Assembly: GCA_963842885.1 (NCBI GenBank)
Contig: CAWJIE010000007.1
Coordinates: 1-64,000, forward strand
DNA: 64,000 nt
Source: an uncultured Nitrososphaerota archaeon
Lineage (GTDB): Archaea > Thermoproteota > Nitrososphaeria > Conexivisphaerales > DTJL01
Direction of reading: 5' to 3'
Under the pieces are notes generated by a model. That model did not search any database and had not been told where the DNA came from. It saw only the letters and a program-made list of their open reading frames with translations. This document shows positions 17,939 through 21,582 of the stretch, one piece after another (position 1 is the stretch's first letter; each line of letters opens with the position of its first letter). Made by a program: the position numbers and the translations under genes.

Positions 17939-18076
17939 TCGCAACGGCCATCGCAAAAGCGGCGCGCGTCTGCAATCTCCCTTTCCTCTCACGTTCTCGC
18001 CCTTTAATCATCTGCATGGGCCTCCAGTCAGGGCCAGGGTCTCGCCCACGAACCCCAAGGCCGCCCCGATGAAGAG

Positions 18077-18139
18077 GCCGCCATCGTCGTTCAGGTCGAT
18101 GATACTGATTCCTTCTCCAGCAGCAACAGATACCCAAGA
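18077..18139 (+). repeat. dispersed intergenic repeat, copy 4
   Basis: gccgccatcgtcgttcaggtcgatgatactgattccttcTCCAGCAGCAACAGAtacccaaga; aligns ungapped over ~60 bp with copy 7. Confidence 0.85.
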
Positions 18140-18233
18140 TTGCCATCACAAGGTCTCCTGGATAACGCCCCTTAGACCAATGGCAAATCGTCGAAATGCA
18201 GATATAAATCCGAGCCTTCTCTCACTAGTATCA

Positions 18234-18914
18234 ATGGTGAAGTATTGCATCAGTTGTGGGAAGCAGAACGAAGACCAAGCAGTCTTCTGCATAGGGTGCG
18301 GACGAAGGTTCCCGGATGAGTCAACTCCTGTTCAACAGGCGGGGAATACTGCCCCTGCTTCGCCCCCGCAGCCCACTTCACTCTTCACCATAGAGAAGGG
18401 GCCCGGAGCCCACGAGCATAGCTTCACTGATGCCTATCTCAAGGACCCCGAGGGCAAAGTGCTGTTAGTGGCGAGGAGGGAATCGCTCCTCCACGAGAAC
18501 TACGCCATAGTGGACGGAGTCGAGGTCGTCAAAGGTCTCATCGAGCATAAGGCACATCTCACCCACTCGGAACTGCGTCTTGAGGATGCTGACCACAACG
18601 TTCAGGGGTCCATCCAAGTCAGCTCCATCCGGACAGCGGGGGTTCCCCCCAATTGCTGGATAGAAGATGCCAACGGCAACAGGCAGGGTTCAGTGATGTT
18701 CACCAGCGGGCTGCTCGGCTTCTCTGTGGTCAAGCTTGATGGCTCCAGGATCTTCGACGCTTCATTCACCTCCGGACCTGGGCTGAGGCAACTCCTGACC
18801 GCGTTGGAGCACAGGGTCTATGAGATCGATCTCGTTGACTCCAGCTTTCCCTTGCCTATGCTTCTGACCGTCGTTCTAGCCATCGAGGGCGTGACTCTGA
18901 CCACTCGGAGGTAG
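18234..18914 (+). CDS. zinc-ribbon protein with possible LURP/scramblase-like beta-barrel domain
   Basis: YCISCG...FCIGCG, then beta-rich domain ending in LLTVVLAIE helix; TATA-like GATATAAAT at 18201-18209. Confidence 0.7.
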   Translation: MVKYCISCGKQNEDQAVFCIGCGRRFPDESTPVQQAGNTAPASPPQPTSLFTIEKGPGAHEHSFTDAYLKDPEGKVLLVARRESLLHENYAIVDGVEVVKGLIEHKAHLTHSELRLEDADHNVQGSIQVSSIRTAGVPPNCWIEDANGNRQGSVMFTSGLLGFSVVKLDGSRIFDASFTSGPGLRQLLTALEHRVYEIDLVDSSFPLPMLLTVVLAIEGVTLTTRR

Positions 18915-18977
18915 AGGCTTCGATACCCATCGAGTCAAGTCCAAAACCCATGATTGGCTGACAAGCTCGGTTTTTTT

Positions 18978-19003
18978 GAGGGAATCGCAAATCCTTTCCA
19001 GCA
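18978..19003 (+). repeat. dispersed repeat copy 5, left half (interrupted by IS110)
   Basis: gagggaatcgcaaatccttTCCAGCA ends exactly at the IS boundary. Confidence 0.8.
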
Positions 19004-19064
19004 CTCATGAAAGATGCCCCTTGGGCCAGCTTCCTCGAGCCTGCCTTCAGCCAGCGGTGTCCTG

Positions 19065-20108
19065 TCAGCCATCCATGGATTTGAGCTTTGTCTTGTACCT
19101 CTCCCTGTTCGTGGACTCGTACTCCTCCCTTCTCGTGAGCATGAACCAGACGATCTTCAGCATCTTGTTGGCCACGGCGACGACGGCCTTCTGGTCGCCC
19201 CTCCTCCCCTTCACCCGCTCGTAGAAGGACCTCAGCCTCGGGTCGTGCATCGATGCAGACCTCGCCGCCTCCACCATTATCCATCGGAGCATCTTCGAGC
19301 CCTGCTTCGTGATGGCTCCGTGATACTCCACGGAGCCCGATTGGTGGAGCGATGGGGCCAGCCCGGCCCACGACACCAGCTTCTTGTAGTTGGGGAACCT
19401 CTTGATGTCCCCTATCTCGGACCTTATGAGGAGGGCAGAGAAGACGTCCACCCCCGTGAGGCTCAGGAGCAGCCTCACGTCCTCGTCCTGTGACGCCCTC
19501 TCCGTGATCCTGTCGTCCACCCTGGAGATCTGTTCATTGAGGCTCTCCAGGTGATCCAGGTGGTTGTCCAGCATGAGCCGCTCCATCGGGGGGAGCTCCA
19601 GCGTCTTCAGCCACTCCACCCCTCCCTTCCCGAAGAGGTCGGAGAAGTCATGCTTCAGGCCGTTCCTGTCGACCATCGCGTGGACCCTGTTCTTCACCAT
19701 GGTGCGCACCCTCACGATCGACGCCCTGTGCCTGATGAGCTCCCTCATCTCCCTGACATCCTTGGGAGGGACGTAGCTCTCGGGTATCAGGTCCGCCCTG
19801 AGGAGGTGGGCCAGTATCCTGGCGTCCACCCTGTCGCTCTTTATCCTCGCCCATGCGATTGCCTTGGTCTTCGAAGGGGAGGCCAACACGGTCGCGACGT
19901 GCATGGAATCGAGCCTCTCGTATATGCTTAGCCAGTATGCCCCCGTCGCCTCCATCACCACCCTGTCGTCCATGGTGAGCGTCGCAGCGAGGGAGGATAT
20001 CCCTTCGCAGTCGTTTTCGAAGCCGAACTCGTCCACCACGGCCCCGTGCTCGTCCATCATTGAGACCCTGCATTTCGCCTTGCCCACGTCTATTCCCACG
20101 TATCTCAT
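19065..20108 (-). CDS. IS110 family DEDD transposase/recombinase
   Basis: MRYVGIDVGK, VMEATG, KSDRVDA and AGLAPSLHQSG (catalytic Ser loop); AGGAGA upstream. Confidence 0.95.
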   Translation of the reverse strand: MRYVGIDVGKAKCRVSMMDEHGAVVDEFGFENDCEGISSLAATLTMDDRVVMEATGAYWLSIYERLDSMHVATVLASPSKTKAIAWARIKSDRVDARILAHLLRADLIPESYVPPKDVREMRELIRHRASIVRVRTMVKNRVHAMVDRNGLKHDFSDLFGKGGVEWLKTLELPPMERLMLDNHLDHLESLNEQISRVDDRITERASQDEDVRLLLSLTGVDVFSALLIRSEIGDIKRFPNYKKLVSWAGLAPSLHQSGSVEYHGAITKQGSKMLRWIMVEAARSASMHDPRLRSFYERVKGRRGDQKAVVAVANKMLKIVWFMLTRREEYESTNRERYKTKLKSMDG

Positions 20109-20129
20109 TCCACTATTCACTCTCCTTTT

Positions 20130-20255
20130 TGCAGCTGGCATCGGGCTGCATTCACTCATGCGGGCGCCAGGCCCACTTCCTTAGCAGCTCAGGATTCGCC
20201 CAGTCAGCAACACGGTCGCCAGGACCATGCTGAAAATCGGGCTTGCCAGCCCATA
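20130..20255 (-). ncRNA. putative bridge (seek) RNA of the IS110 element
   Basis: Closing helix GCUGGCA/UGCCAGC; two stem-internal-loop-hairpin arms, both capped by CUGGC; loop strands match the target repeat and the donor junction. Confidence 0.75.
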
Positions 20256-20283
20256 CGGTATCAGGGGGCGTCTTTCATAAGGT

Positions 20284-20301
20284 CAGCAATAGATATCCAA
20301 A
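20284..20301 (+). repeat. dispersed repeat copy 5, right half
   Basis: CAGCAAtAGAtatccaaa begins at the IS boundary. Confidence 0.8.
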
Positions 20302-20390
20302 TGACTCGTACTGTGGCTCTCATTCGCAGGTCCAAGCCTACCGCAACGTTTGACACAGGATGCTTGGATTCTCTCTTGAGGTCGGTAGAG

Positions 20391-21194
20391 CTAGCCCAGG
20401 AGCGGGGACATGGACTGCAGCAGCGCGTCCTCGAACTGAATGTGGTTGTTGAAGTGGTTGTTGGGGTCCTGGATCAGCACGTACTCCCAGTAGAATTCGA
20501 AGAGGCCGAAGGTCACTATCGACAGTATGAGGTAGAGTACAAAGCTCCTGCTGGGGATCCCGTTGTACCTGTTGAAGGTGAAGTTTGTGCCGAGCGCGGA
20601 AAGCGCCCGAGAAGCGTCCGCCAGCATCCCGTCCTCCCTCCTTTCATGCCTGAAGAAGTCGCCCGTCAGGAAGTAGAGGATATAGAGGCCGGCGATCACG
20701 TCGACGAACGGCACTATCAATAGGATCACCCAGAGCACAGCGCTCTTCTCGGTCTCTTCGATCTGGGCCTGACGCGATGTCGCCTCCATCGAGCCGAGGT
20801 ATGCCTCGACGTTCGCCCCCTTCCTCGAAGCCGCTTCCCTCAGGGCCACCTGCAGGTCTGCGAAGAACCTCTGCTGCCTCGCGAAGTGCTGGTTGCGCCT
20901 CCTGATGAGGAGGTAGATCACGTAGAGGAAGGCCACGGCCAGGGCTAGGATTAAGACAGTGAACACCAACACCGTGGTGCCGGCAAAGAGGCCTGCGACG
21001 GGGGGGCTGTAGGTATTGCCGGACTGCAGGGCCGTCAACACCGGGAAGGCGACGAAGAGCACGAGGACCACTTCGGTCAGCGCTAGGAGTTCGACAGCGA
21101 TGGGAACAAGCATCCACAGAGGGGAGACCCTCGTGTCGGTCATCACCCTCATCTCAGCGTCCTTTCTGAGATTCTGCACAGTGGCGGACAACAT
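20391..21194 (-). CDS. membrane protein, DUF4234-like
   Basis: Repeated TM + (H/N)xHF units; LSIVTFGLFEFYW...DPNNHF. Confidence 0.7.
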   Translation of the reverse strand: MLSATVQNLRKDAEMRVMTDTRVSPLWMLVPIAVELLALTEVVLVLFVAFPVLTALQSGNTYSPPVAGLFAGTTVLVFTVLILALAVAFLYVIYLLIRRRNQHFARQQRFFADLQVALREAASRKGANVEAYLGSMEATSRQAQIEETEKSAVLWVILLIVPFVDVIAGLYILYFLTGDFFRHERREDGMLADASRALSALGTNFTFNRYNGIPSRSFVLYLILSIVTFGLFEFYWEYVLIQDPNNHFNNHIQFEDALLQSMSPLLG

Positions 21195-21371: not shown

Positions 21372-21582
21372 CTAATCCTTTGCGATGATGACTTCCGTGG
21401 ACTTGATGATGACCGAGACCTTGTCGCCCTTCATCAGGCCCAGGTCCTGCGCGGCCTCCTTCGTTATCATCGAGGTTATTGTGAAGGGGTCCTTCACGTC
21501 AACCTTCACTACGGCGGCCACCGCCCCCAGCTGGACTGCGGAGACGGTTCCCACGACTTTGTTCCTTGCGCTTATGCTTCAT
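21372..21582 (-). CDS. Mop/TOBE molybdate-tungstate binding protein; 1-nt insertion after codon 2
   Basis: Corrected start MKISARNKVVGTV; ITSMIT...LGL.KGD.V...IKSTEV. Confidence 0.85.

What the first reader, a model, noticed from the sequence alone, without database searches (positions are those of the whole stretch)
18978..20301. IS110 element inserted exactly into the dispersed repeat at a CA core
Seen: the left flank ends ...aatcctttccagCA (19003) and the right flank starts CAgcaatagatatccaaa (20284). Removing 19004-20285 restores tcctttccagCAgcaatagatatccaaa, a member of the repeat family. Sub-terminal IRs (13/14 match) lie 3 nt and 5 nt inside the two CA cores. The longer non-coding end is upstream of the transposase (~175 bp vs ~60 bp downstream). 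Established: long sub-terminal IRs are typical of the IS1111 group, while an upstream non-coding region is typical of the IS110/IS621 group, so the layout is mixed. Inference: the other six copies are empty targets.
Basis: partly seen in the sequence, partly recalled or inferred. Interest (0 to 1): 0.8.

Follow-up and report, generated by a model that had tools for sequence, protein, structure and literature searches.

The report
RNA-guided IS in an archaeal repeat
A 1.28-kb jumping gene of the IS110/IS1111 kind, carrying its own guide RNA, sits precisely inside one copy of a short repeat scattered through an archaeal genome; this is how such elements are known to behave, so it is a clean new example and not a new mechanism.

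Summary
Window 19004-20285 is a 1282-bp insertion sequence on the minus strand. It has a 61-nt right end, a 347-aa DEDD transposase gene and a 177-nt upstream non-coding end. It splits one copy of a ~45-nt dispersed repeat at a CA dinucleotide. Two more copies in the genome have the same junctions. Metagenome contigs from two studies carry this locus with exactly these 1282 bp missing.

The upstream end encodes a bridge/seek RNA: an outer stem encloses two arms, each an internal loop capped by a hairpin. In the first loop the 5' side complements core plus right flank. The 3' side repeats left flank plus core plus the first 2 nt of the element. Across 37 guide/site combinations (28 guide classes) from archaeal MAGs and metagenomes, guides track their own flanks. 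Cognate pairing is at least 6 of 8 in 35/37 and 36/37 cases; non-cognate pairing is mostly 3-5.

Guide order and the long sub-terminal repeats are IS1111-type; the RNA position is IS110-type. Published exceptions with this mix exist.

Verdict: a new member of a known kind, of modest interest. The target repeat is itself unexplained: genus-specific, modular and co-oriented.

The parts
18977..19003 (+). Left half of the split copy of dispersed repeat A, ending in the CA core (19002-19003). On the element strand this is the right target flank (RT).
   Evidence: nhmmer with the repeat profile; sequence; the same flank at the two other IS copies.
19004..20285 (-). The insertion sequence: 1282 bp counting one copy of the core dinucleotide (TG on the element strand).
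   Evidence: Three copies at 93-100% identity with identical ends. Contigs of X1, X2 and X5 skip exactly 1282 bp with a 2-nt ambiguity.
19004..19064 (-). Right end (61 nt) downstream of the transposase gene. It ends ...CTTTCATGAG before the core, which is the left donor (LD).
   Evidence: CATGAG followed by the core is conserved in the relatives.
19007..19020 (.). Sub-terminal inverted repeat, right-end arm (ATGAAAGATGCCCC on the + strand).
   Evidence: 13 of 14 positions complementary to 20265-20278.
19065..20108 (-). Transposase gene, 347 aa, with DEDD/RuvC-like N-domain and IS116/IS110/IS902 C-domain; contains the GLAPSLHQSG motif.
   Evidence: PF01548 3.8e-27 and PF02371 3.4e-24. NF033542 at 277 bits. 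PDB relatives: ISCro4 transposase 4e-15 and IS621 transposase 1e-13.
20109..20285 (-). Left end, a 177-nt non-coding region upstream of the transposase gene that encodes the bridge/seek RNA.
   Evidence: The structured part differs at only 2-4 of 120 positions between the three copies, against 39-67 of 1048 in the CDS.
20133..20251 (-). Structured RNA (element nt 35-153): an outer stem enclosing a target-binding arm and a donor-binding arm.
   Evidence: RNAalifold on 29 sequences gives 31 pairs. 96.2% of cells are paired against 27-44% when partners are slid; 10 pairs have compensatory changes; no shuffle of 500 reaches the covariation score.
20227..20237 (-). Target loop, 5' side (AUUUUCAGCAU). 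It complements the top strand of core plus right flank, so it is an RTG or 'top-strand match'. The two other copies read AUUUCCAGCAU.
   Evidence: Cognate pairing of at least 6 of 8 in 36 of 37 guide/site combinations, against mostly 3-5 for non-cognate pairs; p = 9e-22. Sequences.
20203..20213 (-). Target loop, 3' side (GUGUUGCUGAC): G, then 6 nt of the left flank, then the core TG, then AC. AC is the first 2 nt of the element, so this tail is handshake-like.
   Evidence: Cognate pairing of at least 6 of 8 in 35 of 37; p = 8e-19. The last 2 nt equal the first 2 nt of the element in 38 of 42 records: AC 29, AT 8, TC 1.
20176..20183 (-). Donor loop, 5' side (UAAGGAAG). UAAGG complements element nt 4-8 (CCTTA). 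This assignment is tentative.
   Evidence: 4-6 of 6 positions pair in 15 cognate combinations, but this is not separable from non-cognate pairs, p = 0.11.
20150..20160 (-). Donor loop, 3' side (CAUGAGUGAAU): the last 6 nt of the right end, then the core TG, then the first nt of the left end. This matches the circle junction.
   Evidence: Sequence. The core letters in this loop follow the core type in 31 of 31 records: 16 TG and 15 AG.
20265..20278 (.). Sub-terminal inverted repeat, left-end arm (GGGGCGTCTTTCAT on the + strand).
   Evidence: The TATGAAA part is invariant in 29 aligned relatives.
20286..20302 (+). Right half of the split repeat A. On the element strand this is the left target flank (LT).
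   Evidence: nhmmer; the same flank at the other IS copies.
20323..20340 (+). One copy of a second abundant repeat module (B, TTCGCAGGTCCAAGCCTA) just beyond the target. It is not part of the IS.
   Evidence: 67 copies with 3 or fewer mismatches and 58 by profile.

Best explanation
This is an RNA-guided insertion sequence of the IS110 superfamily, of the IS1111 type. Its bridge (seek) RNA gene lies upstream of the transposase gene instead of downstream.

Shown:
- It is a discrete 1282-bp insertion between the two halves of a repeat, with only a 2-nt core shared by both junctions.
- It encodes a DEDD transposase.
- Its 177-nt left end holds a conserved structured RNA. The first internal loop of that RNA carries two segments matching the insertion site. 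The 5' side complements the top strand of core plus right flank. The 3' side is identical to left flank plus core, so it would pair with the bottom strand.
- These segments change together with the flanks across related elements.
- The second loop's 3' side matches right end plus core plus left end, which is the circle junction.

Inferred from the published mechanism of IS621 and of ISEc11/ISEc21:
- The element excises as a circle joined RE-TG-LE.
- The transposase-RNA complex holds the circle junction with the donor loop and a repeat copy with the target loop.
- It exchanges strands at the TG core, inserting without target duplication and in one orientation.
- The two letters after the core in the target loop's 3' side match the element's first two letters. 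They probably act like the 'handshake' letters of IS621, pairing with the incoming donor strand after exchange.

The ~45-nt repeat supplies many near-identical landing sites outside genes.
For: Insertion:
- Three copies have identical ends and related flanks but unrelated sequence further out.
- Contigs from 3 runs in 2 studies skip exactly 1282 bp.
- The genome holds 8 exact empty 15-nt sites.

Protein.

RNA structure: 31 pairs, 96.2% of cells paired, 10 pairs with compensatory changes, no shuffle of 500 reaching the covariation score.

Guide-flank covariation:
- The test used 37 distinct guide/site combinations in 28 guide classes, from 13 genome and 67 metagenome loci.
- The left guide pairs at 6 or more of 8 positions in 35 of 37; the right guide does so in 36 of 37. 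Non-cognate values are mostly 3-5. Mann-Whitney p = 8e-19 and 9e-22, not corrected for relatedness.
- The core is TG or AG and agrees between the target loop and the junction in 40 of 42 records on the left and 38 of 40 on the right. It agrees between the target loop and the donor loop in 31 of 31.
- The handshake-like letters agree with the element's first two letters in 38 of 42.
- A haloarchaeal plasmid relative (45% identity) shows the same layout on reading its ends.

Conservation: the structured RNA differs at 2-4 of 120 positions between copies, against 3.7-6.4% in the CDS.

Literature:
- Guide rules for IS621: passages and section 12 of PMC11208160.
- Handshake guides: passages of PMC11208158.
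- IS1111 versus IS110 guide order and NCR position: sections 6, 9 and 12 of PMC11187229.
Against: - No RNA data: no RNA run is listed for this stretch, so transcription, the ends of the RNA and the promoter are not shown.
- No circle junction was seen, but only contigs could be laid, and contigs cannot show rare forms.
- The window's RNA alone does not fold better than shuffled sequence (z = -0.41). The structure rests on covariation.
- The donor loop's 5' side is complementary to the left end, but no better than to non-cognate ends (p = 0.11).
- No handshake-like agreement was found on the donor loop (3 and 5 matches of 18).
- Two of 37 elements (L011, L062) fit the left guide poorly (1 and 2 of 8) under my fixed register.
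- One of the three genomic copies carries a 4-nt insertion that splits the gene.
- The three copies differ by 4-7%, so recent activity in this genome is not shown.
- The IS was not found in 4 congeneric genomes of 59-95% completeness.
Confidence: 0.85

Rival explanations
1. It is an IS110-group (IS621/ISEc21-like) element, as the upstream position of the non-coding region would suggest, and not an IS1111-type element.
For: The NCR is upstream, 177 nt against 61 nt, which is the usual IS110-group arrangement. PDB relatives by sequence are the IS621 and ISCro4 transposases.
Against: The segment complementary to the top strand lies 5' of the bottom-strand segment. This is the order reported for IS1111 members and the reverse of ISEc21 and IS621. 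The sub-terminal inverted repeats match at 13 of 14 positions, whereas the IS110 group has 2-3 bp or none. The alignment to the IS5075 transposase, an IS1111-family member by the title of Partridge and Hall cited, covers 97% of the protein in one piece.
Confidence: 0.1
2. Site choice is made by the protein recognising the repeat (sequence or shape), and the matches in the non-coding region are incidental.
For: The target is a repeated, conserved sequence. A search listing shows a 2026 preprint on ISPpu10 reporting an extra structural layer of target recognition; I saw only the start of its abstract.
Against: 28 guide classes change in step with 37 different sites while the protein stays 60-74% identical. 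The repeat shows no hairpin: DNA folds of six copies give z from -0.04 to +1.66.
Confidence: 0.04
3. The shared flanks are part of a longer element, or the three loci are segmental duplications and not independent insertions.
For: The flanks are alike for 8-25 nt on each side.
Against: Beyond the repeat the flanks are unrelated. The repeat occurs about 49 times without the IS. The same locus occurs without the IS in other populations.
Confidence: 0.01

Closest known systems
IS1111-family elements with seekRNA (ISEc11, ISPa11, ISKpn4; Siddiquee et al. 2024, PMC11187229)
   Same: DEDD transposase of about 330-350 aa. Sub-terminal inverted repeats of 7-17 bp. Insertion in one orientation at a specific site without duplication. 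An RNA with a top-strand match located 5' of a bottom-strand match.
   Different: Here the RNA gene is upstream of the transposase gene (left end), not downstream. The paper notes such exceptions (ISMtsp17; ISHvo10 and ISAcp5 with long NCRs at both ends) but, in the sections I read, does not describe their RNAs. The host here is an archaeon, judged to be Bathyarchaeia from the MAG titles of the nearest relatives.
IS621 / IS110-group bridge RNA (Durrant et al. 2024, PMC11208160; Hiraizumi et al. 2024, PMC11208158)
   Same: The RNA is encoded in the left end, upstream of the recombinase gene. It has two internal loops, one for the target and one for the donor. [quoted passage not shown] Two handshake letters next to a target guide match the donor.
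   Different: [quoted passage not shown] The sub-terminal repeats are long, not 2-3 bp. The two arms are enclosed by a conserved outer stem. No handshake agreement was found on the donor loop. The core is TG or AG.
REP-targeting IS110-family elements (IS621 in E. coli REP; ISPpu9 and ISPpu10 in Pseudomonas putida REP)
   Same: An IS110-family element using a dispersed intergenic repeat as a multi-copy landing site. For ISPpu9 and ISPpu10 I saw only the search listings. That IS621 lands in REP is recalled and comes from no call.
   Different: The target repeat here is not palindromic. It belongs to a genus-specific set of co-oriented modules.
IS110-family element on Halanaeroarchaeum sulfurireducens plasmid pHSR2-01 (NZ_CP008875.1, 52987-53982)
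   Same: 45% identical transposase. The upstream region has a recognisable target loop whose two sides match its own flanks (read by eye).
   Different: Its downstream non-coding stretch also appears longer, about 186 nt to the junction I read by eye; I did not check that end further. It has a different target and is annotated only as 'IS110 family transposase'.

Membership tests
IS110 superfamily (DEDD transposase IS) | Transposase with the DEDD_Tnp_IS110 N-domain and the Transposase_20 C-domain | tested here: met
   PF01548 at 95.4 bits (cut-off 29) and PF02371 at 85.5 bits (cut-off 21.3). NF033542 at 277 bits (cut-off 140).
IS110 superfamily (DEDD transposase IS) | Site-specific insertion without target duplication beyond a shared core dinucleotide | tested here: met
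   A 2-nt overlap at both junctions in 3 copies. The empty-site joint skips 1282 bp with 2 letters fitting both sides.
IS110 superfamily (DEDD transposase IS) | A non-coding end encodes an RNA whose loops match target and donor | tested here: met
   Covariation of both target-loop sides with the flanks. Core covariation in the donor loop. Structure covariation. Transcription itself was not testable.
IS1111 group | Sub-terminal inverted repeats of 7-17 bp | tested here: met
   13 of 14 positions, lying 3 and 5 nt inside the cores. Conserved in the relatives.
IS1111 group | Top-strand match located 5' of the bottom-strand match in the RNA | tested here: met
   The 5' loop side is the reverse complement of core plus right flank. 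The 3' loop side equals left flank plus core. The rule is taken from PMC11187229 sections 9 and 12.
IS1111 group | Longer non-coding region downstream of the transposase gene | tested here: not met
   177 nt upstream against 61 nt downstream. Published exceptions exist (ISMtsp17).
IS1111 group | Transposase related over its full length to that of IS1111 (phylogenetic placement) | tested here: inconclusive
   One-piece alignment to the IS5075 transposase over residues 4-340 at 25.8% identity, E = 6e-16. No tree was built because labelled IS110-group references were lacking.
IS110 group (IS621 / ISEc21 type) | Sub-terminal repeats absent or very short, and the bottom-strand match 5' of the top-strand match | tested here: not met
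   Long repeats and reversed guide order.
IS110 group (IS621 / ISEc21 type) | Longer non-coding region upstream of the transposase gene | tested here: met
REP-like palindromic target repeats | The repeat unit forms a stable hairpin | tested here: not met
   Six window copies folded as DNA give z from -0.04 to +1.66.
Integron attC array (considered for the target repeat and its companion modules) | Imperfect palindromic sites beside an integron integrase gene | tested here: not met
   Repeat A has no hairpin. None of the 53 predicted proteins in three module-rich stretches matched an integrase or recombinase family in Pfam at E <= 1e-5. The rest of the genome was not scanned for integrases.

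The most novel reading that the evidence does not exclude
The archaeal clade found here (Bathyarchaeia MAGs, peat and sediment metagenomes, a haloarchaeal plasmid) may be a distinct third layout of the IS110 superfamily. It would be an IS1111-type recombination polarity with the guide RNA circularly permuted to the left end. The RNA would be a three-way-junction bridge RNA, with a handshake on the target loop only. Its landing site in this genus would be one module of a so far undescribed system of co-oriented, modular intergenic repeats (A-D) that flank accessory genes and may themselves be recombination or mobility sites.
Probability: 0.15. Interest if true: 0.6.

Novelty: new member of a known kind. 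Interest (0 to 1): 0.35.

Why it matters
The element gives a natural, internally controlled data set for an archaeal branch of bridge/seek-RNA recombinases: 28 guide classes with their own sites. The two traits used to separate IS110 from IS1111 are where the RNA gene sits and the order of the guides. In this branch they come apart. That supports the view that the two layouts differ by where the circular form is opened, not by a different RNA. The guide-site pairs also define which loop positions are programmable in this branch, which is useful for anyone mining compact recombinases. For this genome, the result explains a presence/absence polymorphism and identifies a multi-copy safe landing site.

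Tried and rejected
- The restored 28-mer with 3 or fewer mismatches has 0 hits in the window. The window copies are too diverged, so a profile was needed.
- Rfam: nothing on the IS region except a chance sR51 match at E = 0.92. Nothing on five repeat-module loci.
- Single-sequence fold of the 177-nt end: not more stable than shuffles.
- Repeat A as a hairpin: rejected.
- Repeat A as coding sequence: there is some 3-base periodicity in conservation, but no frame is open across copies. The best frame has stops within 5-30 codons upstream.
- Donor-loop 5' side covariation: not significant.
- Donor-loop handshake with the right flank: 3 and 5 matches of 18, which is chance level.
- Module orientation against GC skew: on C2 the switch at 104 kb lies near the cumulative-skew minimum at 100 kb, but C3 and C5 give no consistent picture. 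Left open.
- Integron idea for the modules: no integrase among 53 proteins.
- IS copies in 4 congeneric genomes: none found; their completeness is 59-95% and they are fragmented, so this does not show absence.
- No RNA holder is listed among the sequencing runs.
- No circle-junction joint was seen in the contigs laid, and contigs cannot show rare forms.
- Loose ends at 20298-20301 may be further occupied repeat copies. One equals the flank of the empty copy at C4:137473 seen. I could not see how much IS sequence those contigs hold, so I do not count them.
- Literature search for 'IS110' + 'Bathyarchaeota' + 'transposase': 0 papers.
- The search of earlier findings was not open.
- No phylogeny with named IS110 and IS1111 references was made. 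Supplementary trees of PMC11187229, which may already place archaeal relatives, could not be read.
Full report
OBSERVATION

On the + strand the left flank ends ...tcctttccagCA at 19003. The element runs from 19004 to 20285 and ends ...ctttcataaggtCA. The right flank continues gcaatagatatccaaa. The inverted repeats are ATGAAAGATGCCCC (19007-19020) and GGGGCGTCTTTCAT (20265-20278). They match at 13 of 14 positions and lie 3 and 5 nt inside the two CA. The only long ORF is on the minus strand (19065-20159). With the usual MRYVGIDVGK start it is 347 aa (19065-20108). That leaves 177 nt upstream and 61 nt downstream.

IS IT AN INSERTION?

The genome that holds the window (G000, 11 contigs, 2.03 Mb) has two more copies, at C3:1416-2701 (94% identity) and C3:189232-190510 (93%). 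A Pfam search of the whole genome finds no other IS110-type gene, and shows the first C3 copy split in two. The alignment shows a 4-nt insertion there.

All three copies have the same ends. On the element strand their flanks read ...TCTATTGC-TG on the left and TG-CTGGA... on the right. Further out the flanks are unrelated. Comparison with uninterrupted repeat copies leaves exactly 2 nt (TG, or CA on the + strand) that could belong to either side.

Contigs of four public metagenome runs were laid on 18300-21000. One contig each in X1 and X2 (one study) and X5 (another study) joins 19001 to 20284. Each skips 1282 bp, with 2 letters fitting both sides and 111-255 letters on the shorter side. The locus therefore exists without the element in related populations, which are about 95% identical in the flank. 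No joint of the 'goes back' kind (a circle junction) was reported, but contigs cannot show rare forms.

THE REPEAT

The restored 28-mer has no match with 3 or fewer mismatches in the window. A local BLAST of the restored sites against the genome found exact 24-26-nt matches on C3, C4 and C5.

An 18-mer across the site has 40 matches with 3 or fewer mismatches. Their consensus is GATGATATTGATTTCTTTTCCAGCAGCAATAGATATCCAAGA. A profile built from them finds 49 copies at E <= 0.01. Six of them lie in the window besides the split one: 3803, 13416 (minus strand), 16211, 18092, 21287 and 27644.

The 15-nt site specified by the guides (see below) occurs 8 times exactly and unoccupied, 8 times with one mismatch and 21 times with two. 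Composition predicts 0.002 exact matches. The six window copies have 1-3 mismatches.

The repeat is not a hairpin, lies in no consistent ORF and matches no Rfam family.

THE PROTEIN

The protein matches PF01548 and PF02371 and NF033542, 'IS110 family RNA-guided transposase', at 277 bits against a cut-off of 140. Its solved relatives by sequence are the ISCro4 and IS621 transposases, at 4e-15 and 1e-13. The alignment to ISCro4 keeps the GIDV, E, D..D and SG positions.

THE RNA

On the element strand the 177-nt left end contains several matches to the site and to the element's own ends:
- AUUUUCAGCAU (nt 49-59) is the reverse complement of core plus right flank, with one G-U pair. The two other copies read AUUUCCAGCAU, a perfect match.
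- GUGUUGCUGAC (nt 73-83) is left flank plus core TG plus AC, the first two letters of the element.
- CAUGAGUGA (nt 126-134) is right end plus core plus the first letter of the left end.
- UAAGG (nt 103-107) complements element nt 4-8.

To test whether this is more than chance I collected relatives. There were 13 loci from species genomes. Eleven are titled Bathyarchaeia or Bathyarchaeota; the others are titled Nitrososphaerales and, for a weak partial match (34% identity), a Poribacteria bacterium. Identity is 60-74% among the ten full-length matches. A further 67 loci came from metagenome contigs.

Fifty records (47 loci plus two of the three genomic copies entered apart, and the window) have a recognisable first loop. 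An alignment of 29 different RNAs (A2) was folded by RNAalifold without any input from me. It gives an outer stem (GGCUGGC with GCCAGC) around two arms. Each arm consists of a closing stem, an internal loop of 8-11 nt per side, and an apical hairpin.

On that structure 96.2% of cells are standard pairs, against 27-44% when the partners are slid by 1-3 columns. Ten pairs have compensatory changes (5 of 500 shuffles reach that number). No shuffle reaches the covariation score.

The candidate guides are the two sides of the first internal loop. The donor matches are the two sides of the second.

GUIDE-SITE COVARIATION

The element ends were located from the conserved sub-terminal repeat alone: TATGAAA on the left and CATGAG on the right. 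I then compared loops and flanks in 37 distinct guide/site combinations belonging to 28 guide classes.

[quoted passage not shown] The exceptions are L011 and L062, where my fixed register fails. [quoted passage not shown] For guides paired with the sites of other classes the values are mostly 3-5. Mann-Whitney p = 8e-19 and 9e-22. These values are not corrected for relatedness.

The core itself is TG in some lineages and AG in others. It agrees between the target loop and the junction in 40 of 42 records on the left and in 38 of 40 on the right. It agrees between the target loop and the donor loop in 31 of 31.

The two letters after the core in the 3' side equal the first two letters of the element in 38 of 42 records (AC 29, AT 8, TC 1). 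One case has the same left guide but a switch of both (L064 against L043).

Two tests gave no support. The donor loop's 5' side pairs with the left end at 4-6 of 6 positions, but no better than with other elements' ends (p = 0.11). The letters after the core in the donor loop's 3' side do not follow the right flank (3 and 5 matches of 18).

WHICH FAMILY?

Durrant et al. (PMC11208160; passages, section 12) report the following. [quoted passage not shown] The IS110 group has long left ends and 2-3-bp sub-terminal repeats. The IS1111 group has long right ends and 7-17-bp repeats.

Siddiquee et al. (PMC11187229; sections 6, 9 and 12) report that in IS1111 members the top-strand match lies 5' of the bottom-strand match, and that in the IS110 member ISEc21 the order is reversed. 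They also say a few IS1111-type elements have an upstream NCR (ISMtsp17) or long NCRs at both ends (ISHvo10, ISAcp5), and that the family is abundant in bacteria and archaea.

The element here has the IS1111 order and IS1111-length repeats, with the RNA gene in the IS110 position. In the circular form the two ends are joined, so moving the RNA from one end to the other only needs the crossover site to lie on its other side. The guide order, meaning the polarity of the crossover site relative to the cargo, stays the same. This is my inference. It fits Durrant's remark that the RNA 'translocated between the ends'.

Viewed from the opposite DNA strand, the target loop has the same plan as in IS621: a long guide on the 5' side, then a second guide followed by two handshake letters on the 3' side (Hiraizumi et al., PMC11208158, passages).

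A haloarchaeal plasmid relative (45% identity) has the same upstream loop matching its own flanks, read by eye. The layout is thus not confined to Bathyarchaeia.

I could not build a tree with labelled references. The supplementary trees of Siddiquee et al. were not readable and may already contain such elements.

ACTIVITY

Between the three copies the structured RNA differs at 2-4 of 120 positions. The CDS differs at 39-67 of 1048 and the right end at 0-13 of 61. The RNA is therefore the best-kept part.

One copy has a broken gene. The locus polymorphism in metagenomes shows movement at some time. One contig in X1 carries the left end followed, after GCAATA, by a different sequence: a loose end at 20292, which must include IS sequence because no joint is reported there. 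This points to at least one further insertion site sharing only the guide-specified letters.

The IS was not found in the four other species genomes of the genus. Companion modules of the repeat were found in all four, and repeat A itself matched only in G002. No module was found in 26 genomes outside the genus. At least part of the repeat system is therefore more widespread in the genus than this IS; whether repeat A itself is older than the IS is not shown.

WHAT REMAINS OPEN

The nature of the repeat is open. It travels with three other conserved modules: B, 58 copies; C, 37; D, 23, the last with a covarying hairpin. They occur in changing combinations in the intergenic regions of stretches rich in accessory genes such as toxin-antitoxin pairs, ABC and MFS transporters and DUFs. 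A stretch holding the thermosome gene and a TFIIB zinc-ribbon protein gene lacks them.

The modules are co-oriented over long blocks whatever the gene strand. On C2, 37 modules on the + strand lie between 15.5 and 104.0 kb, followed by 22 on the minus strand between 104.6 and 178.9 kb. I have no tested explanation for this.

VERDICT

The finding is correct and now has a mechanism supported by covariation. It is a new archaeal member, with a rare but published layout, of the RNA-guided IS110/IS1111 elements. Interest is modest.

Noticed in passing
window 20323-20340, and genome-wide (for example G000:C2:15557-48810): A second repeat, module B (consensus about gtCAGCCCATTCGCAGGTCCAAGCCCACGTCC), has 58-67 copies. 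It is often directly preceded by one of two other conserved modules. Module C reads about TCAATTAACCTATTGTTTTCAATAACACAAAGATGAAC. Module D is a hairpin, GTTTGCC-N13-GGCAAAC, followed by TTGAAAC. B can also be preceded by repeat A. Orders such as C-B-A and A-D-B occur. No Rfam match.
   Followed up: partly
G000:C2:14700-179000 (outside the window); window copies at 3803-27692: Modules A-D are co-oriented in long blocks regardless of gene strand. On C2, 37 lie on the + strand up to 104.0 kb, then 22 on the minus strand from 104.6 kb. The switch lies near the cumulative GC-skew minimum of that contig (100 kb). Other contigs give no clear pattern.
   Followed up: partly
genomes G001-G004 against G005-G030: The A-D-B composite matches in all 4 other species genomes of the same genus (1-29 matches each) and in none of 26 genomes from other genera of the family and order. 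The repeat system is genus-specific among those searched.
   Followed up: partly
L007-L010 (one Bathyarchaeota MAG, four copies of a 62%-identical relative): In three of the four copies (L007, L008, L010) the left flank, read in frame by eye, is the 3' end of an ORF coding for a hydrophobic helix followed by LLLFRR(H)RK. The IS appears to sit just before the basic tail, so the target there looks like the conserved C-terminal membrane-anchor coding end of a protein family. I did not read the fourth copy (L009) this way.
   Followed up: no
G000:C3:1416-2701 (L002): This IS copy has a 4-nt insertion (AAAG) in the transposase gene that splits the Pfam match into two pieces, so it is probably a dead copy.
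   Followed up: yes
window 20034-20263, run X5 (table 5): Single contigs in X5 skip 85 bp (20034 to 20120) and 96 bp (20166 to 20263) inside the left end. The shorter sides are only 24-30 letters, which the tool warns often come from other organisms. They may be related elements with different left ends.
   Followed up: no
window 18230-18914 (+) and 21372-21554 (-): The genes beside the insertion are a small protein with an N-terminal zinc-ribbon-like CxxC...CxxC motif (an ORF within 18069-18914) and, further right, a 60-aa ORF that looks like a TOBE/Mop-type domain by eye. The IS lies between the convergent 3' ends of 18069-18914 (+) and 20391-21194 (-), so it interrupts no gene.
   Followed up: no
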